Of a stretch of 35,597 nucleotides of DNA, positions 1,011 to 35,597 are shown piece after piece. The position numbers and the translations under genes are program-made. Every line of letters begins with the position of its first letter. The stretch's first letter is position 1. The stretch lies in the IMG/VR virus record IMGVR_UViG_643348551_000007; one strand, written 5' to 3'. This DNA comes from a virus (lineage: Duplodnaviria; Heunggongvirae; Uroviricota; Caudoviricetes). Below the pieces are notes generated by a model. It saw nothing but the letters and a program-made list of their open reading frames with translations. It searched no databases and was not told where the DNA came from.

Positions 1011-1988
1011 TTAAGCACCTCCTAGTGGATTAAACCTCACCGCATCCTGCAGGTAATCCGGCGCAAGATGGGCATAAATCATCGTTGTCTGAATCTTTGC
1101 GTGCCCCAGAATTTTCTGGAGCGTCAGAATATTGCCGCCGTTCATCATGAAATGACTGGCGAAGGTGTGGCGCAGCGCATGAACAGCCTGGCCGTCAGGA
1201 ACATCAGGTGCGACCGTTTTGATGACATCGCGAACCAATGAATAATCCAGCGTCGGAAACACCAGTTTCCCGCCCCGTTTTTTGATCTTTTCAAACAGGC
1301 TTTCAGAAATAGGAACGGTACGGTTTTTGCTGTTCTTCGTTTTTGAAAAAGTGATTCGACAATGAAGAACACGGCGCTGCTCCAGTGCCGCTACCTCGCC
1401 CCATCGCGCCCCGGTCGACAGAAGGATTTCGACAGCCAGTCGTTCATCGGGATTTTCAGCCAGTGCATCCAGCAACTGAACACATTCAGACTTACTCAGA
1501 TATCCCATTTCGCGCTCGTTAACCTTCATTCCTTTAAGGCCTTGAACGGGGTTATCGTTAAGAAAATGGCCGGATGAGATGAGTGCGGTAAACATCGCGC
1601 TTAACGCCCCAATCTCTCGATTTATGGTGCTGGGCTGTATCCCCTGCTCTATCCTGGACACACGTAGCTCGGTGAGCATCGTTGTATTAAGTTTATGCAC
1701 GCACGGGTCATCCATTGCTTCACTCAAGCGCAGCAATTTAAGGCGCGTGTTATGCCCTGACTTCATTAGCTGGCCGTGGTATTTCCACCACAAGTCAATA
1801 AGCACTGACAGAGGACGGCGATCAATAGAGTTTCCTTTCCACTCATTGTTATGCTGTTGCGCCAGCACCCACCGCTCATATAAAACTGCATCCGATTTCG
1901 TTTTAAATTTTTTGCGAATGCGTTTGCCTTTACGCCCCTCAGGGCGCATGTCAAGAAGATACCCTCCCGGAATTGATTTTATGCTCAT
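1011..1988 (-). CDS. int: Tyrosine recombinase, P2-type phage integrase
   Basis: ORF track 1011..2138; C-terminal HALRHTFASHFMMNGGNILTLQKILGH...MIYAH catalytic region; N-terminus MSIKS...RPEGRKGKRIRKKF matches P2 Int, so start placed at internal ATG (1988). Confidence 0.93.
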   Translation of the reverse strand: MSIKSIPGGYLLDMRPEGRKGKRIRKKFKTKSDAVLYERWVLAQQHNNEWKGNSIDRRPLSVLIDLWWKYHGQLMKSGHNTRLKLLRLSEAMDDPCVHKLNTTMLTELRVSRIEQGIQPSTINREIGALSAMFTALISSGHFLNDNPVQGLKGMKVNEREMGYLSKSECVQLLDALAENPDERLAVEILLSTGARWGEVAALEQRRVLHCRITFSKTKNSKNRTVPISESLFEKIKKRGGKLVFPTLDYSLVRDVIKTVAPDVPDGQAVHALRHTFASHFMMNGGNILTLQKILGHAKIQTTMIYAHLAPDYLQDAVRFNPLGGA

Positions 1989-2037
1989 TCGTGAAACCCC
2001 AGCGTTACAAGACCACCATGCCCCCAGCGTTCCATGA

Positions 2038-2346
2038 TTAGCCGGGCTGTGTACCAGTCTTGCGGGATTTTTGAGAAGACGATGTGTTTTCTGGCCCATC
2101 AGGGGAGAGAGAGGGACTGATCTGCCCAGCAGCCTCATTTGTTTTTCCCGTCATAAGCCAATTCATGTACTTAAAAAAGCGAGGGTGATTAACAATCTTG
2201 ATAAGCACTTCGCCCCCTATGTTTTCAATCCGCCCCGTTTCATAACGACGCAAAGTGCCGATAGGCACATCAATCAGGCCGCAAAATTCTTCGCGCGTTA
2301 AATCCTCTGATTCACGAATCACTCTAATTTTTTCACCGATAAGCAT
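2038..2346 (-). CDS. C: Immunity repressor, P2 C-like
   Basis: ORF track 2038..2382; about 100 aa HTH protein transcribed divergently from the cox-like gene and upstream of int as in P2; motif GTLRRYETGR resembles P2 C GTLSYYESGR; start set at internal ATG 2346. Confidence 0.8.
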   Translation of the reverse strand: MLIGEKIRVIRESEDLTREEFCGLIDVPIGTLRRYETGRIENIGGEVLIKIVNHPRFFKYMNWLMTGKTNEAAGQISPSLSPDGPENTSSSQKSRKTGTQPG

Positions 2347-4781: not shown

Positions 4782-7547
4782 ATGACGGCAGAGTACATCA
4801 GGGACTGGCAACAACCGCGCCACGCAGTGGGGCGTGAAGGAACGGGGATCCCCGCTCCTGAATCCGCGCTTTCCTCCTGGCTGGATGCCTACCGGGTAGA
4901 GAACGAGCGCCGCCAGGAAATGGCTGATGCGGCGTTCTCCGCAACGCCGCTGGGCAACCTGATTAATAAAAGCCTGGACGCACAGGAAAAACAGGACAAA
5001 ACCATCACACTGGCAGGAGATGCCAGAAAACAGGCACGCGGCGCGGTGGATGAAGCCATGGCCTCGCTGCGCCTGCTGCCGTCCTATCTGCGCGATCCGC
5101 TTATTCGCCACCTCTCCTTCCTGCGCAAAAAACAGGAAGCCGATCGTCAGAAAGGCAAAAAGAGCTGGCAGGCTGAACGCTACGCGCGCGGAAACCTGCG
5201 CAAAATATTCGAACGTCTGGAGCGCACCGATCACCGCTGGCTGACACAGGGTTATCGCTCCCTTGCCGGACGCGAACGCCTTGACGATTTGCTTTACCTG
5301 CCGCAGCTCAACAAACACCAGATACAGACACTGGCCACCATGACGGCGGCGATGTTCAGCAGCACCTTCGAAAAACTCTGCGATGGCTTTGGCGCGACCG
5401 ATGGCGAACTGACCATGGATGTAACGCTGAAGGCGTATCAGATGCTGGCCCGCATGGCGTTACACCTGCACGCCATGCCTCCACATTATGACGCACTGAC
5501 AACAGACAAAGACCGGAGGAACGAACCGGACACGGAGCTGCTGCCGGGCGCAATCCTTCGCCTGACCTGTGCAGAATGGTGGAAACGCAAACTGTGGCTG
5601 TTACGTTGCGAGTGGAGAGAAGAACAACTCCGCGCCGCCTGTCTGGTTTCCAGAAAAACATCGCCCTATCTGAGCCAGGACGCGTTAAGCGAGTTTCGCG
5701 CACAGCGCGAGAAAACACGCGATTTCCTGAAAAGTTTCATGCTGGAAAATGAAGACGGGTTCACGATTGATCTCGAGACAGTGTATTACGCGGGAGTAAG
5801 TAACCCGGTTCACCGTAAGGCAGAAATGATGGCCACCATGAAGGGGCTGGAACTTCTGGCCGAAGCCCGTGGTGACAAAGCGGTGTTTCTGACTGTCACC
5901 TGCCCGTCAAAATACCACGCAACAACGGAGAACGGTCATCCGAACCCCAAATGGAACGGGGCCACCATGCGCGACTCCAGCGATTACCTGGTTAACACGT
6001 TTTTTGCGGCGGTCCGCAAAAAACTGAACCGCGACGGCCTGCGCTGGTATGGCATCCGCACGGTGGAGCCTCACCATGACGGCACCGTGCACTGGCATAT
6101 GATGGTCTTTGCTCATCCGGAAGAAATCGACAGCATCGTGGCCATCACCCGCGATATTGCCATTCAGGAAGATCGTCACGAACTGGGCGATGATATTACT
6201 CCGCGCTTTAAGGCGGAGTATGTCGACGGCTCAAAAGGCACACCAACCAGCTATATCGCGACCTACATCGGAAAAAACCTGGACAGCCGCGCCGTAGATG
6301 GCATCGACCCGAAAACGGGCAAGCCACGCGTTGACCACGAAACCGGAAAATCAATGGCCGAGAGCGTGGAGCGCGCCATTGGCTGGGCGCGTCTTCATCG
6401 GGTCCGCCAGTTCCAGTTCTTTGGCATCCCCTCCCGTCAGGTATGGCGTGAACTCCGCCGCCTTGCCAGCCAGATGGCACGCAACCCGGAAGGCCCGCAA
6501 CGGCTGAAGGATGATGCAATGGATGCGGTACTCGCTGCCGCTGATGCCGGGTGTTTTGCCTCCTACATTGAAAAACAGGGCGGCGTACTTGTTCCACGTA
6601 AAGACTACCTGATTCGCACCGCCTACGACCTCGCAGATGAGCTGAACGATTACGGCGAGCAGAGTGTACAGATTTACGGGATCTGGTCGCCGCTCATCGG
6701 GGAGTCTTCCCGCGTGTGCACGCACCCGGATAACTGGAAGCTGGTAAGACGTAAACCGGAAGCGGAAGACAGCGCCCGCGAAAATGGTTTTGACATTCAG
6801 GGCGGCCCTACCGCCCCTTGGACTCGTGGCAATAACTGTCCCCGTGTACAGGAAACAGGCAACAGCGGGACAGAACAGTCGGAAGAGCAACCAACACCGT
6901 GGTCGCAGATCCCTGACGGCGTTGATGTGGATGAATGGATGCGCTCACTGAAACGGCACGAACGCCGGGCGCTGATGCGTTCGCTGTGTGACAAACGGGC
7001 AAAAAACAGCAGTGATGAAATGCGGAGCTGGACACAGAGCCGCAAACAGCAACGGCCTTTGCCTGATAACCACGAATTACTTGCTAAAGAATGGCGGGAG
7101 TCTGCTGAATCTCTCGGCCTGCATATCGGTGAACAGCAGATGCAGCACCTGTTACGGGGCGGCAGCCTGTACGTTGACGGCAGCATCATTGCACCGCAGG
7201 GATTTGAAATTGTACGCAAACCGGATACCCGCCCGGACAGCCGAATCACGCAGCTCTGGCAGCGCCTGAGCCGTAATCACGGCGTAAGCAGCACGGAGAT
7301 CCGCCATAACCCGGTCGCCAGCTATCTGGAACAGCTAGGGGCATCAGACCCCGAAGCCGCCGCACACCTGGCATCCACACTTCAGCAAGACCTGAGCACC
7401 ATGAAAACACCAGTTACCGTGCTTTCTGACATGCTGCGCGCCATCCGTGACGCAGAGCACGCACAACGCATCAGTGCAACCACAAAGCATGTACGCCGCA
7501 AAGCTGACCTTCTACAGTCTTGGTTAAACAATAGAAATAAAGAGTAG
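4782..7547 (+). CDS. A: Rolling-circle replication initiation endonuclease, P2 A-like
   Basis: ORF track; HUH motif in GTVHWHMMVF and paired catalytic tyrosines in TSYIATYIGKN (YxxxY, as in phiX174 A / P2 A); 921 aa, longer than P2 A, with a C-terminal extension. Confidence 0.93.
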   Translation: MTAEYIRDWQQPRHAVGREGTGIPAPESALSSWLDAYRVENERRQEMADAAFSATPLGNLINKSLDAQEKQDKTITLAGDARKQARGAVDEAMASLRLLPSYLRDPLIRHLSFLRKKQEADRQKGKKSWQAERYARGNLRKIFERLERTDHRWLTQGYRSLAGRERLDDLLYLPQLNKHQIQTLATMTAAMFSSTFEKLCDGFGATDGELTMDVTLKAYQMLARMALHLHAMPPHYDALTTDKDRRNEPDTELLPGAILRLTCAEWWKRKLWLLRCEWREEQLRAACLVSRKTSPYLSQDALSEFRAQREKTRDFLKSFMLENEDGFTIDLETVYYAGVSNPVHRKAEMMATMKGLELLAEARGDKAVFLTVTCPSKYHATTENGHPNPKWNGATMRDSSDYLVNTFFAAVRKKLNRDGLRWYGIRTVEPHHDGTVHWHMMVFAHPEEIDSIVAITRDIAIQEDRHELGDDITPRFKAEYVDGSKGTPTSYIATYIGKNLDSRAVDGIDPKTGKPRVDHETGKSMAESVERAIGWARLHRVRQFQFFGIPSRQVWRELRRLASQMARNPEGPQRLKDDAMDAVLAAADAGCFASYIEKQGGVLVPRKDYLIRTAYDLADELNDYGEQSVQIYGIWSPLIGESSRVCTHPDNWKLVRRKPEAEDSARENGFDIQGGPTAPWTRGNNCPRVQETGNSGTEQSEEQPTPWSQIPDGVDVDEWMRSLKRHERRALMRSLCDKRAKNSSDEMRSWTQSRKQQRPLPDNHELLAKEWRESAESLGLHIGEQQMQHLLRGGSLYVDGSIIAPQGFEIVRKPDTRPDSRITQLWQRLSRNHGVSSTEIRHNPVASYLEQLGASDPEAAAHLASTLQQDLSTMKTPVTVLSDMLRAIRDAEHAQRISATTKHVRRKADLLQSWLNNRNKE

Positions 7548-7681
7548 TGGATGGGTAAAAATTAATAATAAGTATAAGCAATGTCGACAAACCAAGACAC
7601 AACAAGTATTCAACACAATTAATCATGCACGTGCAAATAGCAATAACATTAACACATTATTTATATAAAAAAAGCGATCTG

Positions 7682-7738
7682 ATATTATTTCGGTTGTGGG
7701 CTTGGTATTTTCAAACCCACAACAATAATATTATTTCG
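7682..7738. terminator. Intergenic hairpin flanked by an 11-bp direct repeat; candidate bidirectional terminator between convergent A and cargo operon
   Basis: Stem GTTGTGGG (7693-7700) / CCCACAAC (7716-7723) with 15-nt loop; ATATTATTTCG occurs at 7682-7692 and again at 7728-7738; AT-rich intergenic 7548-7757. Confidence 0.4.
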
Positions 7739-7757
7739 ATATATTAAACATAGACAA

Positions 7758-8549: not shown

Positions 8550-8877
8550 TTCGATGTAATCCTCTTCTCACAGCCCTATCCAGCTCAGAAAGCATTCCTT
8601 CTTTATAATTCACTCCATCTAAAGATGTTCTGCTATAAAATTCATTCGGAGATGAAAAAAGAGGCAATATATTCTCTAGCATACCCAAAAAGTATGAGCT
8701 TGACACAACCACACCATTCGGAATTGATAGAAAAATCCTATCATTGTTATCAAAAGTAAAGCGATCTATGCCAAAGAAACTATATGCCTTGCGACCATTA
8801 TCACGCCCAGCAAATAATTTCTTGCCGCCATCTTTAACTAATTTATTGAAATCTATATAAATATTTGCCATTTTCAT
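8533..8877 (-). CDS. Small STAS-like (DUF4325-like) protein, second gene of the cargo operon
   Basis: 114 aa; segment FLSIPNGVVVSSSYFLGMLENIL resembles the DUF4325/STAS-like signature (hydrophobic-x-SSSF-x-D/E-L), a family typically encoded next to GHKL ATPases; starts 11 bp after the ATPase stop. Confidence 0.6.
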   Translation of the reverse strand: MKMANIYIDFNKLVKDGGKKLFAGRDNGRKAYSFFGIDRFTFDNNDRIFLSIPNGVVVSSSYFLGMLENILPLFSSPNEFYSRTSLDGVNYKEGMLSELDRAVRRGLHRNVPFF

Positions 8878-8888
8878 TTACCTATTCC

Positions 8889-10265: not shown

Positions 10266-10299
10266 AATTCACCTTACTTAACAAACATCTATACTACTT

Positions 10300-10340
10300 C
10301 ATTGCAAAGTATACATATCACTTGCTAATACACAATATGG
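10300..10340 (-). promoter_or_regulatory. Candidate sigma70 promoter for the cargo operon
   Basis: On the minus strand TTGTGT - 16 nt - TATACT about 40-70 nt upstream of the GTG start at 10265; sequence inspection only. Confidence 0.25.
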
Positions 10341-10485
10341 CTTCGAGATAATCCGCAGCATCTGCACAATAGTGCACAAATTTGCACAATTTTTTTGAAC
10401 GACTTTTTGCCCTTCCGGCCCGCATGGCGGCTGGATCCGTCAAGGATCCGTGCGTGCACAAAAAAACACACTTTTTCTGCGCGCA

Positions 10486-10504
10486 GGTGACGGGGGAACA
10501 GCCC
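10486..10504. other. Putative cos (cohesive end) site region
   Basis: GGTGACGGGGGAACAGCCC matches about 13 of 19 positions of the P2 cos overhang as I recall it (GGCGAGGCGGGGAAAGCAC); lies in the noncoding gap between the tin/old slot and Q where P2 cos is located. Confidence 0.2.
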
Positions 10505-10813
10505 GCGTTTCAGGGGGTAAATAGCATTCCCTGAACGATGTCGCAGAGATACAACAGAATGGCTGTATTTCTCACGCTGAGCGTGAAAAAGACGTGAGAG
10601 CTTTTGATTTGATGGGGTGAAAGGTAAGGCCGTCAAAATCGCACTGAGACGGCGAGAACATGCAGTCAACGCGGTGGGATTGCGTAAGAGTCTGACTGTC
10701 GATGATGGCAATCAGCAGGAAAGCGTCGTGAAATTATCTGACTGATACAGGAGCTGGAGAGTCGGGGCATAAATTTTTTATGCCCCGGCGAAGCAGCAGA
10801 CAAGCGAAGCGCG

Positions 10814-11860
10814 TCAGGATGTGGGCTGGGTGTCTAACAGTGCGTAAGGGTTAAAGCGGATCACCTCTTCGCCAAGCCAGTCATTGATGTGCTTCATGGC
10901 CTCCATGACGGGCATCAGCTCGTTAATTGCGTAAACCCGCGCGGCCTTCTCCACATCACCAAACGCACTTTTTTCGCCCGGCATTGCCCCCATCAGTTGC
11001 GGCGGAACGCGGTGCGCAGCCAGCACATCATCACGGGATGCCGCCTTAACATTCATGAACTCATCCTTTGCGGTGATCTGCTGGAACGGCAAAATTTGCA
11101 CCCCCTCTTTGCCCCCGTTGGGCGCATGAATGAGCACGTTTTTAAACGCACCACCACCACGTGCCCCCTGTAGCGTTTCTTTCAGGGAGTCCATGCTTTC
11201 GCGGTTTACCTGCGCTGCACCGATGTAGATGATGCACCCGGCGTGGGATCCGTTGTCGTAATACAGTTTTCTGAACATGTCCGCCGAATGAGACAGGCTG
11301 GCCGAGAGTAATGCGCCAAGATATTCCGGCATGCCGTAGATTTCCTGGTTAATATCCGGATTCATCAGGTGGCACACTTTGCCAGGGCGAAACTGGAACG
11401 CGTCCTTGCCATCCTGCACATACCACCATGATTCAAGATCGCTTCCGCGTCGCATGTATTTCGCCAGGGCGTGCCGTAATTTAAGCGGTTCACCGAGCAT
11501 ATTGCTTCGAAGCTCAAGGAATGCGTTACCGAACACAAACCAGTCCAGCGCCAGCGCCGAGAAATCCTGCCGGGAAAGCAGCGGGTGCGGAATATAGCAA
11601 CCGAGCAATACATTGCGCTTAAAGTAAAGCGCAGACTGATGCCAGGACGTTTGCCGGGCAGCTCTTGCCAGACCGTACCAGTCCACCGGGGTTTCATACC
11701 ACCGCCCGTTATCAGCACAGTACATATTGTCCAGCAGGTCATGCCCGGTCAGGCGATAAGGACCATCAAATGTGAATGCACTGAGCGATGATTCTTTCCT
11801 GAGCGCATCAGCGAGATCAATGCGTGAACTCATGCGCACTTTTTTATTTTTTCTGCTCAT
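10814..11860 (-). CDS. Q: Portal protein
   Basis: ORF track; 348 aa (P2 Q is 344 aa); leftward gene pair with terminase next to cos, as in P2. Confidence 0.9.
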   Translation of the reverse strand: MSRKNKKVRMSSRIDLADALRKESSLSAFTFDGPYRLTGHDLLDNMYCADNGRWYETPVDWYGLARAARQTSWHQSALYFKRNVLLGCYIPHPLLSRQDFSALALDWFVFGNAFLELRSNMLGEPLKLRHALAKYMRRGSDLESWWYVQDGKDAFQFRPGKVCHLMNPDINQEIYGMPEYLGALLSASLSHSADMFRKLYYDNGSHAGCIIYIGAAQVNRESMDSLKETLQGARGGGAFKNVLIHAPNGGKEGVQILPFQQITAKDEFMNVKAASRDDVLAAHRVPPQLMGAMPGEKSAFGDVEKAARVYAINELMPVMEAMKHINDWLGEEVIRFNPYALLDTQPTS

Positions 11861-22022: not shown

Positions 22023-24008
22023 ATGAGTACCACAACACGAAAATTTAAAACCGTTATCACCGATACAGGTGCCAAAAAATTAGCTCAGGCAGCCGCGCCA
22101 GATGGTAAGCCTGTCCGCCTGACTCATATGGCCGTGGGCGACGGTGGCGGCACGTTGCCCACACCAGACAGTAAGCAGACCCGTCTGGTGCATGAGGTGT
22201 GGCGACACACTGTTAATCGCGTCATCCTGGACGCAACACATCAGAACCGCATTATTGCGGAGCTGGTTATTCCTCCTGAAACGGGCGGATTCTGGATCCG
22301 GGAAATTGGTGTATTTGATGAGCACGGCGATTTAATCGCGGTGGGCAATACTGCCGAAAGTTACAAACCAACCGTTGCCGAAGGGTCCGGACGTGCACAA
22401 ACATTTCGCACCATTCTGACCGTATCCAGCACTGCCACCGTGGCGCTTACCGTGGATAACACCATGGTGATGGCCACAGTGGATTACGTGGATGACAAAC
22501 TGAAAGAGCATGAACAGTCACGACGTCACCCGGACGCCTCGCTGACCGCAAAAGGCTTTGTTCAACTCAGTAGCGCCACTAACAGCGTGTCTGAAACGCA
22601 GGCTGCAACGCCGAAAGCGGTTAAGGCCGCCTATGACCTTGCTAACGGGAAATATACCGCACAGGACGCCACTATAGCGCGAAAAGGCCTTGTTCAGCTC
22701 AGTAGCGCCACCAACAGCGATTCTGAAACGCTGGCGGCAACACCAAAGGCGGTAAAGGCAGCATATGACCTTGCTAACGGGAAATATACCGCACAGGACG
22801 CTACCACAGCGCGAAAAGGTCTTGTCCAGCTCAGTAGTGCCACCAACAGCACGTCTGAAACATTGGCCGCGACATCGAAAGCGGTTAAGGCGGTAATGGA
22901 TGAAACAAATAAGAAAGCCCCATTAAACAGCCCGACGCTGACCGGAACGCCAACAACACCAACTGCGCGACAGGGAACGAATAATACCCAAATCGCAAGC
23001 ACGGCTTTCGTTATGGCTGCGATTGCCGCCCTTGTAGATTCGTCACCTGATGCACTGAACACGCTGAACGAGCTGGCTGCGGCGTTGGGCAACGACCCGA
23101 ATTTTGCGACCACCATGACTAACGCGCTTGCGGGTAAGCAACCGAAAGATGCCACCCTGACGGCGCTGGCCGGGCTTGCTACTGCGGCAGACAGGTTTCC
23201 GTATTTTACGGGGAATGATGTCGCCAGCCTGGCAACTCTGACAAAAGTCGGGCGGGATATTCTTGCGAAATCGACCGTTGCCGCCGTTATCGAATACCTC
23301 GGTTTACGAGAACTCGGCACAAGCGGGGAGAAAATACCGTTACTCAGTACAGCGAATACCTGGACCAATCGACAAACATTCAGCGGTGGCCTTTCTGGGG
23401 AACTGTCCGGCAATGCCGCTACTGCAACAAAGCTGAAAACAGCACGAAAAATTGCTGGAGTTGGTTTTGATGGTTCTAGCGATATTTCAATTAGTGCCAA
23501 AAATGTCAATGCATTTGCACTCCGACAAACAGGTAATACTGTTAATGGTGATACATCCGTTGGATGGAATTGGGATAGTGGTGCATATAACGCCATGATT
23601 GGTGGTGCATCTGCATTAATTCTTCACTTTAATATAAATGCTGGTAGCTGTCCTGCCGTACAATTCCGTGTGAATTATAAAAATGGTGGCATTTCCTACA
23701 GGTCGGCTCGTGATGGTTATGGGTTTGAATTAGGTTGGTCAGATTTCTATACCACGACACGAAAACCTTCAGCGGGAGATGTTGGTGCATATACGCGGGC
23801 AGAATGTAACTCAAGGTTTATTACAGGTATTCGCCTTGGCGGTCTGTCATCTGTTCAGACATGGAATGGTCCCGGCTGGTCTGACAGGTCAGGTTATGTC
23901 GTTACGGGTTCAGTTAACGGAAACCGTGATGAATTAATTGATACAACACAGGCAAGGCCAATTCAGTATTGCATTAATGGGACGTGGTATAACGCGGGGA
24001 GTATTTAA
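22023..24008 (+). CDS. H: Tail fibre protein, constant N-terminal part fused to the currently expressed variable C-terminus
   Basis: 661 aa; tandem repeats in the shaft; C-terminus ...IQYCINGTWYNAGSI; followed by a tail-fibre assembly gene. Confidence 0.9.
   Translation: MSTTTRKFKTVITDTGAKKLAQAAAPDGKPVRLTHMAVGDGGGTLPTPDSKQTRLVHEVWRHTVNRVILDATHQNRIIAELVIPPETGGFWIREIGVFDEHGDLIAVGNTAESYKPTVAEGSGRAQTFRTILTVSSTATVALTVDNTMVMATVDYVDDKLKEHEQSRRHPDASLTAKGFVQLSSATNSVSETQAATPKAVKAAYDLANGKYTAQDATIARKGLVQLSSATNSDSETLAATPKAVKAAYDLANGKYTAQDATTARKGLVQLSSATNSTSETLAATSKAVKAVMDETNKKAPLNSPTLTGTPTTPTARQGTNNTQIASTAFVMAAIAALVDSSPDALNTLNELAAALGNDPNFATTMTNALAGKQPKDATLTALAGLATAADRFPYFTGNDVASLATLTKVGRDILAKSTVAAVIEYLGLRELGTSGEKIPLLSTANTWTNRQTFSGGLSGELSGNAATATKLKTARKIAGVGFDGSSDISISAKNVNAFALRQTGNTVNGDTSVGWNWDSGAYNAMIGGASALILHFNINAGSCPAVQFRVNYKNGGISYRSARDGYGFELGWSDFYTTTRKPSAGDVGAYTRAECNSRFITGIRLGGLSSVQTWNGPGWSDRSGYVVTGSVNGNRDELIDTTQARPIQYCINGTWYNAGSI
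22551..22946 (+). repeat. Three in-frame tandem repeats of 132 bp (44 aa) inside H
   Basis: KGFVQLSSATNS.SET.AATPKAVKAAYDLANGKYTAQDAT.AR repeated starting at about 22551, 22683 and 22815; third copy diverges at its end. Confidence 0.75.
23287..23313 (+). other. gix-like recombination (crossover) site, left
   Basis: TTATCGAATACCTCGGTTTACGAGAAC; shares the ACCTCGGTTTAC core with the right site and with Gin gix sites. Confidence 0.7.
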
Positions 24009-24010
24009 CG

Positions 24011-24544
24011 ATGATGCACTTAAAAAACATTACTGCTGGCAACCCTAAAACAAAAGAGCAATACCAGCTAACAAAGCAATTTAACATCAAATGGCTTTAT
24101 TCAGATGATGGAAAAAACTGGTATGAGGAACAAAAGAATTTCCAGCCAGACACTTTGAAAATGGTCTATGACCATAACGGCGTTATTATTTGTATTGAAA
24201 AGGATGGTTCAGCAATTAATCCGGAAGGCGCAAGCGTCGTTGAATTACCTGATATTACAGCAAATCGCCGGGCTGATATTTCGGGGAAATGGTTGTTCAA
24301 AGATGGCGTAGTGATAAAGCGAACTTATACCGAGGAAGAGCAGAGGCAACAAGCGGAAAATGAAAAGCAAAGCCTGTTGCAACTTGTCAGGGATAAAACC
24401 CAGCTATGGGACTCACAGCTACGGCTGGGCATCATTTCCGACGAGAATAAACAAAAATTAACCGAGTGGATGCTCTATGCGCAGAAAGTCGAATCTACAG
24501 ACACCTCCAGCCTGCCAGTAACGTTTCCCGAACAACCAGAATGA
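24011..24544 (+). CDS. G: Tail fibre assembly protein (currently expressed copy)
   Basis: 177 aa; conserved N-terminus [22 protein letters not shown] shared with the inverted copy. Confidence 0.85.
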   Translation: MMHLKNITAGNPKTKEQYQLTKQFNIKWLYSDDGKNWYEEQKNFQPDTLKMVYDHNGVIICIEKDGSAINPEGASVVELPDITANRRADISGKWLFKDGVVIKRTYTEEEQRQQAENEKQSLLQLVRDKTQLWDSQLRLGIISDENKQKLTEWMLYAQKVESTDTSSLPVTFPEQPE

Positions 24545-24547
24545 GAG

Positions 24548-24575
24548 AAGGCCCGATATTGGGCCTTAATTTTTA
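24548..24575. terminator. Bidirectional rho-independent terminator between the convergent tail-fibre assembly genes
   Basis: AAGGCCC-gatatt-GGGCCTT hairpin followed by AATTTTT. Confidence 0.65.
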
Positions 24576-25100
24576 CTCAGGCTTTTGTGGCCATTCTGGA
24601 TTTGCTGTATCCACACGGCTGACCAGAACGCTGTAGCGTTCCCATGACTCCAGTCGTGTGCGTTCCTCATCCGTCGCCATATTCAGCCTGACAGCGCGTT
24701 CCAGTGGCTGAATAACGCTTTCAGCTTCAGAAAGCAACGCGACCTTTTGTGATTCGGCCTGTTGTTGCTGTTCGTCTGCTGTATAAATCCGCTTAACCAC
24801 AGTTCCGTCCTTAAACATCCACTTCCCTGAATCATCGGCACGACGATTGGCTGTTATATCTGGAATCTCAACGACACTAAAGCCTTCGGGATTAAGCGTT
24901 GAGGCATCTTTGGTTATGGCAACAATAATATTATTTTCGTCGTATACAATCTTTATGGTGTCGTCCTGAAAGTTATTTACTTCCTCATACCAGTTTTTAC
25001 CGTCTTCGGACCATAACCAGATAACATCAAAATTCTTTGTTAGCTGATATTGTTCTTTTGTTTTTGGACTTCCGGACTTAATATTTTTTAAATGCTGCAT
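24573..25100 (-). CDS. Tail fibre assembly protein (alternative copy)
   Basis: 175 aa; N-terminus [22 protein letters not shown] paralogous to 24011..24544. Confidence 0.85.
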
Positions 25101-25103
25101 AAT

Positions 25104-25976
25104 TTACACCTGTGCGACGTTATACCATGTGCCATTGATGTATTTTTGTATTGGTCTGAAGATGGCTTCATCATCGCCATCTACTTCACCAATGATTCTT
25201 AATCCGGTAATTGCGTGTCCGGCTTTTTCATAACGACCACCACGCGCCATCAATTGAACAACACGCGTACCCAGGCGAACATCTTTTACATAGCGTGAAT
25301 CAAAATTCCCCCAGTTGCTGGGCTGTATCTGACCGTTAACAGAAAATATTACCGAGTTATCTGTATTTCGCTGGCTATAGAAATGCCATCCTGCCTCATC
25401 GCCTAACTCTGCAACTACTGGACGGGTTGAAGCACCCCATAAATTAAACGTTGCATTCTTTGTGGAGGTGTTGGAGCTGGATAGCGAGAACTTTTTACTA
25501 TCACCTGCCTGAATGTTTTTAAAAGCAATAGCAACTCCATTCTGAAAGCGGAATACTCGCTGACTATTAGCGTAAACATCCAGAATACCATCACCATTCT
25601 GTTTGAATCCGGTGTCATTATCACCAAGAACAATAGAGCTACCACCTAACGCATTCGTCGTACCAACTCCAAGACTGCCATTAATGACGGCATTTACCAG
25701 AATATTTAGTGCATCCCATTTCAGCGTCATCAGGTCTTTTGTTGTGGTGCTCTGGCGGCTTCTCCATTTGAAATATTCATTGCCGTTGTCGCCTGTTTCA
25801 AACCACATGTATGAATCAGTGTCACCATCAGCATCATTTTTAAATCCAATCTTCGCCCAGTCAGTATTTCGAATCCAGGCAAGGATTGAGTCATTTTCAA
25901 AAGTAAGCCTACCGGACAAAGTATCGCCATTTTTTTGCACGGCGTTACCAGCCCTGTTTACCGTTTCCTGTAAACC
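25104..25976 (-). CDS. Alternative tail-fibre C-terminal cassette (promoterless and startless until inversion)
   Basis: Open frame runs from the right gix site; on inversion it would read ...EYLGLQETVNRAGNAVQKNGD... in frame with H; C-terminus IQKYINGTWYNVAQV parallels that of H. Confidence 0.75.
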   Translation of the reverse strand, partial: GLQETVNRAGNAVQKNGDTLSGRLTFENDSILAWIRNTDWAKIGFKNDADGDTDSYMWFETGDNGNEYFKWRSRQSTTTKDLMTLKWDALNILVNAVINGSLGVGTTNALGGSSIVLGDNDTGFKQNGDGILDVYANSQRVFRFQNGVAIAFKNIQAGDSKKFSLSSSNTSTKNATFNLWGASTRPVVAELGDEAGWHFYSQRNTDNSVIFSVNGQIQPSNWGNFDSRYVKDVRLGTRVVQLMARGGRYEKAGHAITGLRIIGEVDGDDEAIFRPIQKYINGTWYNVAQV

Positions 25977-25990
25977 GAGGTTTTAAATAA
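25963..25990 (-). other. gix-like recombination (crossover) site, right
   Basis: Reverse complement reads TTATTTAAAACCTCGGTTTACAGGAAAC, near-identical to the Gin gix consensus as I recall it. Confidence 0.75.
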
Positions 25991-26026
25991 TGGCCGTTTC
26001 TGGCCTGCATGGCATGATTTGCGCTT

Positions 26027-26644
26027 TTGGACGGGAGATTCAGTGTGCTGATTGGCTATGTAAGGGTATCAACAAATGACCAGAATACAGACCTGCAACG
26101 AAACGCTCTTGTTTGTGCAGGATGTGAACAAATATTTGAAGATAAATTAAGCGGGACAAAGACAGACCGACCGGGATTAAAACGCGCTTTAAAGCGCCTT
26201 CAAAAAGGTGACACGCTGGTTGTCTGGAAACTGGATCGCCTCGGGCGAAGCATGAAACATCTGATTTCTCTCGTCGGGGAACTACGGGAGCGAGGGATTA
26301 ATTTTCGCAGTCTGACCGACAGCATAGACACATCTTCTCCAATGGGGCGTTTTTTCTTCCACGTGATGGGTGCCCTGGCTGAAATGGAACGTGAATTAAT
26401 TGTTGAACGTACACTGGCCGGGCTGGCGGCAGCGCGCGCAAGGGGGCGCACAGGCGGACGTCGACCGAAGCTGACAAAAGAACAGCATGAGCAAATAGCA
26501 AGGCTAATCAAAAACGGGCACGACAGAAAACAACTGGCAATAATTTACGGCATTGGCACATCGACGATTTATCGTTATCACCCTGTAGGCGATATACAGA
26601 CTGAAGAAACAACCGGGCAGACTCAGGAAAATGAAAACCGCTAA
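26027..26644 (+). CDS. Serine recombinase, Gin/Pin/Hin-family DNA invertase
   Basis: VLIGYVRVSTNDQNTDLQRNALVCAGCEQIFEDKLSG... is near-identical over the catalytic domain to Mu Gin as I recall it; likely true start is the GTG at 26045. Confidence 0.95.
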   Translation: MDGRFSVLIGYVRVSTNDQNTDLQRNALVCAGCEQIFEDKLSGTKTDRPGLKRALKRLQKGDTLVVWKLDRLGRSMKHLISLVGELRERGINFRSLTDSIDTSSPMGRFFFHVMGALAEMERELIVERTLAGLAAARARGRTGGRRPKLTKEQHEQIARLIKNGHDRKQLAIIYGIGTSTIYRYHPVGDIQTEETTGQTQENENR

Positions 26645-32258: not shown

Positions 32259-32415
32259 AGCTTCAGCCCCTTGTATCCGTTAAATGATTCAGCAACAATC
32301 ATCACCTACCACGCGCGTAATCTCACCCCTGCGCCGTTCTCCCGCCACGGCGACAACAAAAAGCAGTAACCCCTTCCGCACGCACATGCGACCATGCCGC
32401 ACAGGGAGGGAACAG
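32259..32415. promoter_or_regulatory. Divergent promoter region between FI (minus) and D (plus)
   Basis: 157-bp noncoding gap between divergent starts; contains dyad TGATT-N7-AATCA and a TGT...ACA element at about 32272-32297. Confidence 0.35.
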
Positions 32416-33513
32416 ATGACCGACACCACCATGCAATTGCTCAGTCAGGGCACAGACCCCGTGAAAATGCCGGATTTTGATATTCTCGCGGAGGGTAAAA
32501 CGCTGTCAGGCGTGGCAGAGCGCCTGATGAGCCTGTCACTGACCGACAACCGGGGATTTGAGGCGGACCAGCTCACCATCACGCTGGATGATGCGGATGG
32601 TCAGTTGCAGCTACCGCCACGGGGCGCGCGCCTGACGGTTCTCATTGGCTGGAAAGGAGAACCGCTGACAGAAAAAGGCACTTACATTGTTGATGAAATC
32701 GCTCACGAAGGACCGCCGGACAGGCTGACGGTTTCAGCCAGAAGCGCAGATTTTCGGGATGAATTTAACGTTAAACGTGAGGTGTCCTGGCATGATGTGA
32801 CCGTTGAGCGCGTGGTATCCGCCATCGCTCATCGGTACGGTCTGAAACCACAAATCAGCGAAATGCTGATGGATATTGAAATCGACCACGCCGACCAGAC
32901 CGAAGAAAGCGACATGTCCTTCCTTACGCGCATGGCGGAAATGCTGGGCGCAATCACTACGGTAAAAAGCGGTAATCTGTTATTCATCATGCCAGGCGGT
33001 GGCGTGAACGCGCAGGGCCAGCCGTTGCCCTCGTTCGCCATCACACGCAGCAGCGGCGATCGCCATCAGTTCCGCATTGCTGACCGAGAGGCGTATACGG
33101 GGGTACGCGCTTACTGGCTTGATCTTAATTACGGGAAAAAGAAAAAAGTCAGCGTGAAACGCCGTAAACCGAAAATGGAGAAAAGCAGTAGCCGTGAAGG
33201 CGACTATATGGAAGGTGCGGAAGGCAACGTGTTTGTGTTACGCAAGACTTATCAGAACGAACAGGCAGCAAGACGCGCTGCGGCGGCAAAGTGGCAGCAG
33301 CTACAACGCGGAGCCGCATCATTCTCCATCACACTGGCACGTGGACGCGCAGAACTCTACCCCGAAATGCATGGCACGGTAACAGGATTTAAAAGCGAGA
33401 TTGATAATCAGGACTGGATTATTGCAAAAGCCGAGCACACCATTGATAACAGCGGTTTTACCACGCAGCTTGAACTTGAAACAAAAATCCCTGAATGGAT
33501 TGCGCAGACCTAA
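32416..33513 (+). CDS. D: Tail protein D (late control gene D family)
   Basis: LSLTDNRGFEADQL, RSADFR, SWHD, ITRSDGDRH-like, EGDYMEGAEGNVF and SGFTTQLELE blocks match P2 gpD as I recall it; start set at ATG 32416 with GGGAGGG Shine-Dalgarno. Confidence 0.9.
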   Translation: MTDTTMQLLSQGTDPVKMPDFDILAEGKTLSGVAERLMSLSLTDNRGFEADQLTITLDDADGQLQLPPRGARLTVLIGWKGEPLTEKGTYIVDEIAHEGPPDRLTVSARSADFRDEFNVKREVSWHDVTVERVVSAIAHRYGLKPQISEMLMDIEIDHADQTEESDMSFLTRMAEMLGAITTVKSGNLLFIMPGGGVNAQGQPLPSFAITRSSGDRHQFRIADREAYTGVRAYWLDLNYGKKKKVSVKRRKPKMEKSSSREGDYMEGAEGNVFVLRKTYQNEQAARRAAAAKWQQLQRGAASFSITLARGRAELYPEMHGTVTGFKSEIDNQDWIIAKAEHTIDNSGFTTQLELETKIPEWIAQT

Positions 33514-33528
33514 ATGGTGGGAAGATAC

Positions 33529-33567
33529 GGCACAGAGCCAACATAATATACCTGTTTGCTCTGTGCC
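33529..33567. terminator. 10-bp inverted repeat after D (possible terminator)
   Basis: GGCACAGAGC ... GCTCTGTGCC with a 19-nt loop; no clear U-tract. Confidence 0.3.
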
Positions 33568-33643
33568 CGAAATAGGCATCATAAACCTAACGATGAATTG
33601 ATATGCAAGATTATAAAAAATCCGCTGACATTATTTCTCATCG

Positions 33644-34804
33644 TTAATCAAGTTTTTGCTGATGATACCGATACAGCATCATTCTAAGTTTTAGCAAGGT
33701 TGTACTATCATTATCTGCAGAGCAAAAATTATACCAACCTTCAGTATATTTATTTAAAGTATCAAAGTAATAATCCTTCAATGGATCATCCCTATCTGAG
33801 TGGAGACAAGAAAACATCTTCTGAAGAATATAATTTAATTCACCTGTAGGAAGCCTCGAAATAATCACATCACAAGTAGTTGTTAAATCTTCAATATTCA
33901 TTTTCTGAAGATTATTTCTAATCTCTAAAACGATCGGATAGAGTTTACTCAAAAACTCATTTACTTCATCTTGAAGATGCTTCTCTTTAACACAACCATC
34001 AAACAAATGAATTAACTCTTCCAATTGCATTCGGTAATAATCATTATTACCTCGTATAGCGACTTCTGAAAGAAGCAGCCTCAACTCATCATAAATGTTA
34101 TCGGTGGATGATATAACTTGCGCGGACAAAACATCGTAATGGTTGTTACGAATTACCACTATAGAGTCCATTAGTTTTTCTAGATATTTATACCTACTTT
34201 CAACATATGAGATAAGCTCGTTAAATTTAATACCGAAAATAACATCATCCACACCGGGTTTATTATTATAAAGACTTATAGTAAAATCATTATTATTAAG
34301 TGCATAAAAATGAGGCCAACTCGCAAACAATCTCTCCCCGTGGTTATTTTTAAGATTCGTAGGGTGAGCACCAAAAATAGCGCGAACACTCTTAAAATAA
34401 GAGTCATCATCCTCATGCGAAAGATAATGTATTTTATCCTTAAAAATATCAACAGAGCCTTTAAAGGGCCATTTCATAAAATTATTGTCACTTTCAATAA
34501 TACGATGGAGTTGCCGCACCGCTTCCACTATTATATCGATTGATGATATAATAGTATAAATCTGCATAGCTTTAATATCAATGTCTTCAGATATTTCAGG
34601 GATGTTCATAAGATAGCGTACAGAAACAGTAATCCAATCCATGCATGAACAAATAGGGCTGAACTGATTTTTACCATTTCTGTTTATGAAGTAACTATAA
34701 ACAAAATCTCTTTCATTAACTACATCGCGAAAATCCGTTATTAAAGTATCATTAATAGTTATACCAAAATTTGTCTTAGTTATCTTCATGGTGACCATTT
34801 TCAC
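33644..34804 (-). CDS. AT-rich cargo gene, hypothetical 386-aa cytoplasmic protein (possible Abi/HEPN-like)
   Basis: ORF track; strongly AT-rich, opposite orientation to flanking D and ogr; contains an R-x5-H stretch (RAIFGAH); no TM segments. Confidence 0.7.
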   Translation of the reverse strand: MKMVTMKITKTNFGITINDTLITDFRDVVNERDFVYSYFINRNGKNQFSPICSCMDWITVSVRYLMNIPEISEDIDIKAMQIYTIISSIDIIVEAVRQLHRIIESDNNFMKWPFKGSVDIFKDKIHYLSHEDDDSYFKSVRAIFGAHPTNLKNNHGERLFASWPHFYALNNNDFTISLYNNKPGVDDVIFGIKFNELISYVESRYKYLEKLMDSIVVIRNNHYDVLSAQVISSTDNIYDELRLLLSEVAIRGNNDYYRMQLEELIHLFDGCVKEKHLQDEVNEFLSKLYPIVLEIRNNLQKMNIEDLTTTCDVIISRLPTGELNYILQKMFSCLHSDRDDPLKDYYFDTLNKYTEGWYNFCSADNDSTTLLKLRMMLYRYHQQKLD

Positions 34805-35005
34805 ATCAACATTCTCATAGAGAGTAGATTTTTACCGTTATCATATATAAACACAAGTCATCTGGTTATCCGAATCACTATATTTAAAGCAATTAGGTTT
34901 AAACATGCACTCCTGCGCTAACTTTTTGCTCAAGGCGGAGTGGCTGTTGGAGTCTGAGCCAGTACAACTTAAAATAGAACCAGCACCACGTTAAGGGAGG
35001 TCGCT

Positions 35006-35266
35006 ATGTTCCGTTGTCCGCTTTGTGGCGCATCTGCCCGTATCCGCACCAGTCGTCCGGAAAATGATTCAAACACCGTGCGGCAAAAGTATTACCAGTG
35101 TAACAACCTGGAATGCGGCGTATGCTTCTCAACACTGGAAGCTTTCCATAAATTCACATCGAAACACGCCTCCGGCGTTCACTCTTCAGATGGTATCCCG
35201 TGGCATGAGCTGCCAGCTTCACACAGGGGAAACAATCAGATGAGTTTGCCTTTACCTCAGAATTAA
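35006..35266 (+). CDS. ogr: Zinc-finger late-gene transcriptional activator, Ogr/Delta family
   Basis: MFRCPLCGASARIRTSR...YYQCNNLECG parallels P2 Ogr (MFHCPLC...YHQCQNVNCS) with four Cys; AAGGGAGG Shine-Dalgarno. Confidence 0.9.
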   Translation: MFRCPLCGASARIRTSRPENDSNTVRQKYYQCNNLECGVCFSTLEAFHKFTSKHASGVHSSDGIPWHELPASHRGNNQMSLPLPQN

Positions 35267-35456: not shown

Positions 35457-35597
35457 ATGTCGCAAAAATCGCTTACGGCCATCACGTTCTGCGTGACGGC
35501 AATCCTCATCATCTGGATGCTGCACGGTTCGCTGTGCGAAATACGGATGAGCTTCTGGGGAGCGGAGTTTGCGGCGTTCTTACAGTGTAAGCAGTAA
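35457..35597 (+). CDS. Hok/Gef-family type I toxin (46 aa)
   Basis: Not in the ORF track (<60 aa); translation MSQKSLTAITFCVTAILIIWMLHGSLCEIRMSFWGAEFAAFLQCKQ has an N-terminal TM helix plus the SLCEI and AAF signatures of Hok peptides (closest in my memory to HokA); AGGAG Shine-Dalgarno; stop codon is the last 3 bases of the window. Confidence 0.65.
   Translation: MSQKSLTAITFCVTAILIIWMLHGSLCEIRMSFWGAEFAAFLQCKQ

What the first reader, a model, noticed from the sequence alone, without database searches (positions are those of the whole stretch)
33644..34804. AT-rich cargo gene between D and ogr on the opposite strand: possible abortive-infection protein
A 386-aa ORF of strikingly low GC content is inserted between two conserved late genes and points the other way. 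It has no TM segment, is rich in Asn/Ile/Lys/Asp, and contains an R-x5-H stretch (VRAIFGAHPTN) reminiscent of the catalytic R-x(4-6)-H motif of HEPN RNases and the R-N-x-x-A-H block of Abi_2 (AbiD/AbiF) proteins. The motif match is weak evidence on its own, but the location, composition and orientation mark it as a horizontally acquired accessory gene.
Basis: partly seen in the sequence, partly recalled or inferred. Interest (0 to 1): 0.6.

Follow-up and report, generated by a model that had tools for sequence, protein, structure and literature searches.

The report
Unknown prophage cargo gene, probable defence
A foreign, AT-rich gene sits in a swap-prone slot between two tail/late genes of a P2-like prophage; it belongs to a widespread, entirely uncharacterised protein family that travels on prophages, conjugative elements and defence islands, so it is a good candidate anti-phage gene, but the proposed HEPN/Abi RNase identity is not supported.

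Summary
A 384-386-aa ORF (33644-34798/34804, minus strand) has GC 0.32, against 0.54 for gene D, and is the lowest-GC stretch of the window. It lies antisense between D and ogr of a P88/P2-like prophage. The D-ogr junction is a cassette hotspot. About 1,200 of 5,426 complete E. coli genomes carry this junction, and about 40% of those are occupied by many unrelated low-frequency cargos. These include two PIN proteins, a weak HEPN_RiboL-PSP-like protein, and the experimentally validated HXS defence system. This gene is in 19 genomes.

The protein belongs to an unannotated family with 684 representatives at 50% identity. Relatives also sit in a lambdoid nin region, beside a phage serine recombinase, in SXT/R391 ICE hotspot 4, and next to Avs2, Mads, Shedu, Gabija and R-M genes. 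It has no conserved partner gene. A confident AlphaFold model (pLDDT 92) matches no solved structure.

R139-x5-H145 is invariant, but HEPN, Abi_2 and AIPR are not supported. No profile hit occurs in 76 diverse members. The motif-bearing N-terminal half gives no HEPN fold hits. Such a motif is also expected by chance about 1.5 times per protein.

Best reading: a standalone, lysogen-expressed candidate anti-phage protein with a conserved enzyme-like N-module and a variable helical C-module. The mechanism is unknown.

The parts
33644..34798 (-). Cargo CDS of 384 aa (stop codon 33644-33646). Alternative starts are GTG 34804 (386 aa) and ATG 34789 (381 aa). It belongs to an uncharacterised protein family.
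   Evidence: The AF2 model has pLDDT 92.3 and pTM 0.84.
34226..34798 (-). Conserved N-terminal module (residues 1-191): three long helices, a short helix and a three-stranded sheet. It carries most invariant residues (S51, D54, W55, D88, D131, R139, F142, H145, S160, W161).
   Evidence: Mean pairwise identity is 36% with 38 columns at >=80%.
34364..34384 (-). It is invariant in the family but not in a HEPN-like structural context.
33647..34225 (-). [not shown]
   Evidence: Mean pairwise identity is 22% with 10 columns at >=80%. The source of the HEPN-like hits is inferred.
33507..34973 (.). Inserted cassette of about 1.47 kb, relative to the empty P88-type D-ogr junction. The left edge lies inside the last codons of D: a deletion of about 31 bp removed the left copy of the 9-mer and changed the D C-terminus to ...EWIAQT*. 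The right edge is the 9-mer CAACTTAAA (34965-34973).
34946..34958 (+). Conserved right-end cassette motif GTTGGAGTCTGAG. It is shared by unrelated D-ogr cargos and absent from the empty site.
33529..33567 (.). GC-rich hairpin (GGCACAGAGCCAACA / TGTTTGCTCTGTGCC) between the convergent stops of D and the cargo gene. It is a possible bidirectional terminator or RNA-stability element, with no U-run.
   Evidence: z = -4.2 for the 3' region; I5; not called as a canonical terminator.
33588..33646 (-). Second predicted stem-loop immediately 3' of the cargo stop codon on the cargo transcript.
34799..34964 (-). AT-rich region upstream of the cargo gene, where its own promoter is presumed to lie. No consensus sigma-70 site was called. 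A TTGTGT-16-TAAAAT candidate was seen by eye only.
   Evidence: plus inference.
32284..33513 (+). Left anchor: late gene D (Phage_GPD baseplate hub/tail protein). The true start is probably downstream of this ORF's first ATG.
35006..35266 (+). Right anchor: ogr (Ogr/Delta zinc-finger late-gene activator).

Best explanation
The gene is a horizontally acquired, standalone cargo gene. It occupies a cassette-exchange hotspot between late genes D and ogr of a P88/P2-like (Peduoviridae) prophage integrated next to ihfA/pheT in E. coli. It belongs to a large, wholly unannotated protein family of about 360-385 aa that moves between prophages of unrelated types, SXT/R391 ICEs and chromosomal defence islands.

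The most likely function is a single-protein anti-phage or anti-MGE defence. It would be expressed from its own promoter in the lysogen, since it is antisense to the late operon. The inferred working model has two parts. The strongly conserved N-terminal module forms an enzymatic (hydrolase or phosphoesterase-type) effector site, using an invariant polar cluster (S51, D54, D88, D131, R139, H145, S160). The faster-evolving helical C-terminal module would provide regulation or trigger recognition, so that infection by a competing phage switches the activity on.

Shown: the gene is real, foreign, standalone and mobile. Its slot is a hotspot that elsewhere holds a validated defence system. Its relatives keep defence-island company. 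Its fold has no solved counterpart. Inferred, not shown: the defence phenotype, the enzymatic nature, the substrate, and whether it acts by abortive infection.
For: Foreign cargo: GC is 0.32 against 0.54. The same junction is empty in P88, Chuche, PhiR44_2 and Shae_phiSM and in about 720 of about 1,200 E. coli genomes carrying it.

Hotspot: at least eight different cargo states were seen at the identical site. Counts per 5,426 genomes are: this gene 19, PIN-356 16, PIN-500 59, a 221-aa hypothetical 58, a 465-aa hypothetical 20, and a 340-aa protein with a weak HEPN_RiboL-PSP match 65. A 132-aa protein and hxsDBCA were also found. HXS is an experimentally validated anti-phage system (PMC13128918).

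Family: 91 clusters at 90% identity and 684 representatives at 50% identity were found, all 'hypothetical' with no Pfam domain.

Mobility: the homologue with 73% identity lies in a lambdoid nin region. The 59% homologue follows a large serine recombinase of another prophage. A cluster at >=90% identity lies in SXT/R391 ICE hotspot 4, next to an IdeA-type Endonuclease_1, in Edwardsiella, Pasteurella, Vibrio, Proteus, Shewanella and Enterobacter. Others lie in integrase or resolvase islands with Eco57I/MTase/Alw26I, AAA_13 and Mrr.

Neighbours: within two genes in 36 species-level loci, PADLOC finds Avs2 x3, Mads x3, AriA-like x3, RmrA x2, and Shedu, Gabija, AbiEi, PDC-S20 and a type II MTase once each. 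No partner gene recurs.

Structure and conservation: pLDDT is 92. The invariant polar residues are concentrated in the N-half, which shows 36% pairwise identity against 22% for the C-half.

Base rate: 6 of 8 randomly chosen unknown-function P4 hotspot loci were protective (preprint 10.64898/2026.02.27.708500).
Against: There is no experimental phenotype. No homology exists to any known defence protein or enzyme, so the enzymatic and mechanistic part is inference from conservation alone.

None of the sampled D-ogr cargos is recognised by PADLOC, so this slot is not an established defence hotspot apart from HXS. Part of the neighbourhood signal is neutral: MerR and heavy-metal ATPase genes in three syntenic Psychrobacter loci, and housekeeping genes elsewhere.

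For P2 specifically, the 2026 preprint's machine-learning estimate flags only 15-32% of unknown-function proteins as antiviral. No clear sigma-70 promoter or canonical terminator was detected around the gene.
Confidence: 0.55

Rival explanations
1. One reading: the protein is a HEPN-superfamily (or Abi_2/AbiD-AbiF-like) RNase. The R139-x5-H145 motif would form a metal-independent RNase site, and the protein would act by abortive infection through RNA cleavage.
Confidence: 0.1
2. The gene benefits the mobile element in another way than defence. It could be a counter-defence (anti-restriction or anti-Abi) factor, a superinfection-exclusion or entry-blocking factor, or a lysogenic-conversion gene affecting host fitness or virulence.
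For: Prophage hotspots and ICE variable regions also carry non-defence cargo. Rousset et al. report partition systems and cytolethal distending toxin in P2 hotspots (PMC9122126). In the SXT/R391 ICE it sits beside an IdeA-type DNase that controls DNA uptake rather than phage. The lambdoid nin region hosts many kinds of morons. None of the cargos in this slot is a PADLOC-recognised system.
Against: The protein is large (about 45 kDa), has an enzyme-like invariant core, and has no signal peptide or TM segment. That does not fit typical small acidic anti-defence proteins or membrane-located exclusion proteins. It frequently neighbours Avs2, Mads, Shedu, Gabija and R-M genes in non-prophage chromosomal islands. 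It is also found in free-living marine and environmental bacteria, which argues against a virulence role.
Confidence: 0.25
3. The gene is a selfish or neutral passenger. It could be an addiction-type toxin, or a decaying gene that merely hitch-hikes in a recombination-prone slot.
For: It has low frequency in E. coli (19 of 5,426 genomes). A hok/gef addiction module lies just downstream of ogr. A small deletion occurred at the left cassette border.
Against: The ORF is intact in all 19 genomes at 98.9-99.8% DNA identity. The family keeps full length and an invariant residue set down to about 21% identity across phyla, which indicates purifying selection on a function. No antitoxin-like partner ORF is present in the cassette, and no partner gene recurs.
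Confidence: 0.07

Closest known systems
Defence/accessory hotspots of P2-like phages: old/tin between gpA and the portal gene, Z/fun among the tail genes (Rousset et al. 2022, PMC9122126; iLund4u preprint 10.1101/2024.10.15.618418; 10.64898/2026.02.27.708500)
   Same: A small locus (about 1-4 kb) lies between two conserved phage genes, with rapid turnover of unrelated low-frequency cargo. The cargo is often AT-rich, single-gene, and oriented for expression in the lysogen. One tenant of the slot (HXS) is a validated defence system.
   Different: The slot here is D-ogr, not the two classical sites. The read passages of Rousset et al. and the 2026 P2/P4 census do not name it. [quoted passage not shown] None of the sampled cargos is recognised by PADLOC, so annotation-based censuses would miss it. 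Cassettes here share conserved ends and a flanking 9-mer.
HEPN-domain abortive-infection RNases (AbiD/AbiF = Pfam Abi_2, AbiV, AbiU2, AbiJ, the AbiA C-terminal domain, HepT toxins)
   Different: No profile match exists. The motif lies outside the region that resembles HEPN. The local structure (helix C-terminus followed by Pro) and the residue after Arg (Ala) are atypical. Additional invariant acidic and Ser residues (D54, D88, D131, S160) have no HEPN counterpart.
HXS (hxsABCD) anti-phage system (Nat Commun 2026, PMC13128918)
   Same: It occupies the identical D-ogr slot in a sister prophage (E. coli A24), bounded by the same cassette ends.
   Different: It is a four-gene radical-SAM and repeat-peptide system acting in the periplasm on DNA entry. 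It has no sequence or architectural relation to this cytoplasmic single protein.
SXT/R391 ICE variable hotspots (HS4 with the IdeA DNase; HS5 defence cargo; LeGault et al., 10.1101/2020.12.16.423150)
   Same: A family member at about 39% identity is cargo of ICE hotspot 4 (between traN and the ssb-bet-exo module), beside an Endonuclease_1/IdeA-type gene. It is spread at >=90% identity across many genera.
   Different: The documented ICE defence hotspot is HS5, with a WYL regulator. HS4 cargo has only been linked to blocking transformation, not to phage defence.

Membership tests
HEPN superfamily | Significant sequence-profile match to a HEPN family model (Pfam HEPN_*, Abi_2, AbiV, AbiU2 and others) | tested here: not met
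   No hit at E<=10 for the protein. No HEPN family appears among recurrent hits of 76 diverse members. PADLOC gives 0 hits. Profiles against PDB sequences give 0 relevant hits.
HEPN superfamily | Conserved R-x(4-6)-H motif | tested here: met
   R139 (99%) and H145 (100%) are conserved with x5 spacing. The bare pattern is expected about 1.5 times per protein, and three occur here.
HEPN superfamily | The motif is embedded in the last long helix of a four-helix up-down bundle, usually with a polar residue (N/D/H) after the Arg (my recollection of Anantharaman et al. 2013) | tested here: not met
   [not shown]
HEPN superfamily | Overall fold similarity to solved HEPN domains | tested here: inconclusive
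   [not shown]
HEPN superfamily | Metal-independent RNase activity from a composite dimeric R/H site | not testable with these tools
   Needs biochemistry or an oligomer structure.
Abi_2 (AbiD/AbiD1/AbiF), Pfam PF07751 | Match to the Abi_2 model, including the R-N-x-x-A-H block | tested here: not met
   No Pfam or PADLOC hit. The sequence reads R-A-I-F-G-A-H, not R-N-x-x-A-H.
AIPR (Pfam PF10592) | Match to the AIPR model | tested here: not met
   No hit.
Any catalogued defence system (PADLOC-DB v2.0.0, 2023) | Match to a defence-protein HMM | tested here: not met
   0 families at E<=10. Systems described after 2023 were not covered. No paper cites the accessions.
Prophage hotspot cargo (P2-like diversity hotspot, in the sense of Rousset et al. 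2022) | Located between two conserved phage genes at a site with empty and alternative-cargo alleles in related phages | tested here: met
Prophage hotspot cargo (P2-like diversity hotspot, in the sense of Rousset et al. 2022) | Anti-phage activity of the cargo | not testable with these tools
   Only circumstantial evidence: defence neighbours and HXS in the same slot.
Defence-island-associated gene family (guilt by association, Doron/Gao-type criterion) | Family members are frequently adjacent to known defence genes in unrelated genomes | tested here: inconclusive
   Within +-2 genes in 36 loci there are Avs2 x3, Mads x3, AriA-like x3, RmrA x2, and SduA, GajA, AbiEi, PDC-S20 and MTase_II once each. 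R-M and Mrr genes appear. No per-locus fraction or genome-wide background could be computed with the tools.

The most novel reading that the evidence does not exclude
The gene would be the founding E. coli member of a new, widespread single-protein anti-phage defence family. That family would have a fold and a catalytic constellation (D54, D88, D131, R139, H145, S160) unlike any characterised defence effector. It rides in a previously uncharted D-ogr cassette hotspot of P2-like prophages. The conserved cassette ends and flanking 9-mer repeat would mark a dedicated cassette-exchange site, occupied in about 9% of complete E. coli genomes by almost entirely unknown cargo.
Probability: 0.4. Interest if true: 0.65.

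Novelty: new variant of a known kind. Interest (0 to 1): 0.45.

Why it matters
If the gene protects against phages, it adds a new protein family to the defence repertoire. The family has hundreds of diverged members in Gammaproteobacteria, Campylobacterota, Firmicutes and spirochaetes, and it has an apparently new fold and active site. The evidence also points to a third, largely unexplored cargo slot in P2-like prophages. That slot is occupied in roughly 480 of 5,426 complete E. coli genomes, and current annotation-based defence finders cannot see its tenants. It would therefore be a compact, anchor-defined source of new systems: amplify between D and ogr, then test. If the gene is not defensive, it is still a clean example of the same cargo gene moving between P2-like and lambdoid prophages, serine-recombinase phages and SXT/R391 ICEs.

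Tried and rejected
- **Sequence libraries.** Pfam, PADLOC, PHROGs and NCBIfam scans of the protein gave only noise.
- **PDB by sequence.** phmmer and two profile searches against PDB sequences gave only coiled-coil or designed-protein noise.
- **Zinc site.** A site formed by C50-x-C52 with H98 and H145 was considered, because one member has a Cys-to-His swap. It was rejected because C52 and H98 are not conserved in the wider family, where CSAMDW is common.
- **Terpene-synthase-like DDxxD/NSE motifs, HD-domain and PLC/P1-nuclease-type metal sites.** These were considered from the conserved acidic residues. They were rejected because the motifs are not conserved and no fold hit supports them.
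- **Relationship to the other minus-strand D-ogr cargo (340 aa, weak HEPN_RiboL-PSP).** None was found.
- **Domain fusions.** One C-terminal DUF6577 fusion (P0209) and two unannotated extensions were found, and none was informative. The search with the N-module profile found no annotated fusions.
- **Conserved partner gene or antitoxin.** None was found.
- **Promoter and terminator scans.** Nothing was called upstream or downstream of the gene.
- **Cassette-end motifs elsewhere in the window.** They are absent from the classical hotspot. The repeat finder did not support long terminal inverted repeats.
- **Literature.** A search by accession numbers found nothing.

Full report
**1. Observation**

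The ORF at 33644..34804 (-) exists. It is 386 aa from a GTG start. RefSeq uses the ATG at 34798 (384 aa, 'hypothetical protein'), and some GenBank records use the ATG at 34789 (381 aa).

Its flanks are a Phage_GPD ORF (gene D, 32284..33513 +) and an Ogr_Delta ORF (35006..35266 +). The window as a whole is a P88/P2-like Peduoviridae prophage: integrase 1011..2138, gpA 4782..7547, portal and terminase, tail genes, D and ogr. In sister genomes it is integrated next to ihfA/pheT.

The gene has GC 0.321 and GC3 0.286, against 0.540 and 0.583 for D. It is the lowest-GC 1155-nt stretch of the whole window. There is no TM segment, and the pI is 5.3. Ile, Leu, Asp and Asn are the commonest residues. 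The string VRAIFGAHPTN is present.

The bare R-x(4-6)-H pattern is not informative. Three such patterns occur in this protein, and about 1.5 are expected from its composition.

**2. The locus is a cassette hotspot**

Phage records related to the window fall into three states at the D-ogr junction:
- D and ogr are adjacent, 42 nt apart, in P88, Chuche, PhiR44_2 and Shae_phiSM.
- Phage 520873 carries a 132-aa plus-strand gene.
- Phage 500465-2 carries a 340-aa minus-strand gene.

Using the empty P88 junction as a query, 1,201 of 5,426 complete E. coli genomes carry this junction. In 720 it is contiguous, and in about 480 it is split by more than about 0.85 kb.

Five sampled split sites each held a different cargo:
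- a 356-aa PIN protein
- a 500-aa PIN protein
- a 221-aa hypothetical
- a 465-aa minus-strand hypothetical
- the four-gene hxsDBCA operon

Each cargo is rare. Counts per 5,426 genomes are 16, 59, 58, 20 and 65 for five of the alternative cargos, and 19 for the gene under study. Together these explain only about half of the occupied sites.

The 340-aa cargo has a sub-threshold HEPN_RiboL-PSP match (E = 1.2e-4). It is unrelated to our protein. PADLOC recognises none of the sampled cargos. HXS, however, was experimentally shown in 2026 to be a broad anti-phage system (PMC13128918).

The literature I could read describes two classical P2 hotspots. [quoted passage not shown] D-ogr is not named.

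All occupied sites share conserved cassette ends and a 9-mer, CAACTTAGA, at both borders. The empty site has one copy. In the window, a deletion of about 31 bp removed the left copy and rewrote the last codons of D. I could not resolve whether this reflects site-specific cassette exchange or one ancestral insertion followed by cargo swapping.

**3. The protein family**

A first search found 91 clusters at 90% identity. An exhaustive profile search found 684 representatives at 50% identity, 229 of them below E = 1e-30. Almost all are standalone proteins of 355-395 aa. Every named member is 'hypothetical', and none has a Pfam domain.

Species-level genomes with the gene include Psychrobacter, Vibrio, Marinomonas, Shewanella, Photobacterium, Pseudoalteromonas, Arcobacter and Halarcobacter, Clostridium, Bacillus, Paenibacillus, Virgibacillus and Sphaerochaeta.

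Contexts of family members:
- The homologue at 73% identity in Atlantibacter lies in a lambdoid nin region, between O/P and NinG/Q.
- The Leclercia homologue at 59% identity follows a large serine recombinase at a prophage end.
- A cluster at >=90% identity lies between an Endonuclease_1 (IdeA-type) gene and traN of SXT/R391-type ICEs. This position is hotspot 4 by my knowledge of Wozniak et al. 2009. The cluster spans Edwardsiella, Pasteurella, Vibrio, Proteus, Shewanella and Enterobacter.
- Other members sit in integrase or resolvase islands with Eco57I/MTase/Alw26I, AAA_13 and Mrr genes.

Among the two genes on either side in 36 loci, PADLOC finds Avs2 x3, Mads x3, AriA-like x3, RmrA x2, and Shedu, Gabija, AbiEi, PDC-S20 and a type II MTase once each. 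Housekeeping and heavy-metal genes are also present. No neighbour family recurs beyond a few syntenic loci, so there is no partner gene.

**4. Structure and conserved residues**

The AlphaFold2 model built from a 63-sequence alignment has pLDDT 92.3 and pTM 0.84. Its layout is:
- an N-terminal half of three long helices (18-37, 46-64, 73-101), a long loop, a short helix (131-144) and a three-stranded sheet (156-190)
- a C-terminal half that is entirely helical (192-383)

In a 76-sequence alignment reaching about 21% identity, W55, D131, F142 and H145 are invariant. S51, D54, D88, R139, S160, W161, Y177, E245, R249, Q298 and Y323 are conserved at >=90%. The two Cys of the 'CSCMDW' block are not conserved, which rules out a zinc site.

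The N-half is much more conserved than the C-half: 36% against 22% mean pairwise identity, and 38 against 10 columns at >=80%. I read this as a conserved catalytic or ligand-binding module joined to a faster-evolving helical module.

**5. Test of the HEPN / Abi_2 idea**

- **Sequence:** no HEPN, Abi_2 or AIPR hit occurs for the protein or for any of the 76 diverse members at E<=10. PADLOC gives no hit, and neither do profile searches against PDB sequences.
- **Local context:** R139 is followed by a conserved Ala. H145 sits at the end of a short helix, before a highly conserved Pro (P146; invariant in A1, 87% in A5).

The HEPN/Abi_2 assignment therefore fails the tests that could be run. A residue-level superposition is still needed to close the question.

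**6. Most likely function**

The shown facts are these. The gene is foreign, intact, under purifying selection and standalone. It is carried by several unrelated mobile elements, in slots that hold accessory and defence genes. It is oriented against the late operon, so it must use its own promoter. These facts are best explained by a lysogen-expressed single-protein defence or inter-MGE competition function.

A useful prior comes from the 2026 P2/P4 preprint. Six of 8 random unknown-function P4 hotspot loci were protective, but only 15-32% of unknown-function P2 proteins were predicted antiviral.

I put about 0.55 on a defence function. Conditional on that, an enzymatic effector built from the D/H/R/S cluster is the leading mechanism. 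Abortive infection and the substrate remain open. I give about 0.1 to the HEPN RNase model, about 0.25 to a non-defence benefit for the mobile element, and below 0.1 to a selfish or neutral passenger.

**7. Novelty and score**

The kind of thing is familiar: hotspot-borne candidate defence cargo. The protein family has no known relatives or solved fold, and the D-ogr slot is essentially uncharted. I class it as a new variant of a known kind.

Specialists would regard it as a solid candidate rather than a surprise. Interest is 0.45. If the novel reading holds (a new defence family plus a new cassette hotspot), it would merit about 0.65.

Noticed in passing
window 33507-33530 and 34937-34985; loci L002, L003, L061-L065 and L004: Every occupied D-ogr site, whatever its cargo, starts with (G/A)CAACTTA(G/A)A-TGYATTAGCYCAGAC and ends with GCTGTYAGTTGGARTCTGAG..AGTACAACTTAGA-ATAGCG. 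The empty P88 site has a single GAACTTAGA. This gives a 9-bp (possibly about 22-bp, imperfect) direct repeat plus conserved cassette termini. It suggests an att-like cassette-exchange site, or one ancestral insertion followed by cargo swapping. In the window the left repeat copy is deleted, and the D C-terminus is changed to ...EWIAQT*.
   Followed up: partly
window 7758-10711 (minus strand), between gpA (4782-7547) and the portal gene (10814-11860): The classical old/tin hotspot of this prophage is also low in GC (about 0.40). It holds four ORFs (263, 114, 458 and 128 aa) with no Pfam or PADLOC hit. This may be a second uncharacterised cargo or defence locus in the same prophage.
   Followed up: partly
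L065 (E. coli A24, NZ_CP028751.1) 5009-8406: The experimentally validated HXS anti-phage system (hxsDBCA) sits in the same D-ogr slot of a sister prophage. The HXS paper reports that most hxs operons are not in predicted prophage regions.
   Followed up: partly
L061 and L062 (E. coli M15 and TW05614), L064 (G12), L063 (TUM1887), L003 (phage 500465-2): Other D-ogr cargos are two different PIN-domain proteins (356 and 500 aa), a 465-aa and a 221-aa hypothetical, and a 340-aa protein with a sub-threshold HEPN_RiboL-PSP match. Each occurs in 16-65 of 5,426 E. coli genomes, and none is recognised by PADLOC.
   Followed up: partly
L015 (NZ_JBQPOM010000071.1, labelled Vagococcus sp. WN89Y): A 226-kb contig of a 'Vagococcus' assembly carries this gene at 99% identity, flanked by ORFs whose sizes and order match the window's ogr, D, tail sheath and tail tube genes. 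This is most likely Escherichia contamination or mislabelling of that assembly.
   Followed up: no
L005, L006 and L032 (Edwardsiella ictaluri and a Cellvibrionaceae MAG): In SXT/R391-type ICEs the family member lies in the traN-proximal variable region (hotspot 4), directly downstream of an Endonuclease_1 (IdeA-type DNase) gene and a 200-aa unknown gene, all on one strand. They may form an operon.
   Followed up: no
window 24573-26644: This looks like an invertible tail-fibre segment. A resolvase/invertase gene (26027-26644 +) lies next to minus-strand alternative tail-fibre C-terminus (25104-25940) and assembly (24573-25100) ORFs, downstream of the plus-strand tail-fibre genes (22023-24544).
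   Followed up: no
window 35457-35597 (+): A hok/gef-family toxin ORF begins just downstream of ogr. It is annotated Hok/Gef or MokW-like in sister genomes and phages. It is an addiction module at the prophage end, next to the host ihfA gene.
   Followed up: no
P0209 (609 aa), P0100 (623 aa), P0234 (542 aa): Rare family members carry extra regions. P0209 has a C-terminal DUF6577 domain (E = 6.5e-37). P0100 has a 255-aa N-terminal extension. P0234 keeps only the N-module and has a different 360-aa C-terminal part. This hints that the N-module is an autonomous unit.
   Followed up: partly
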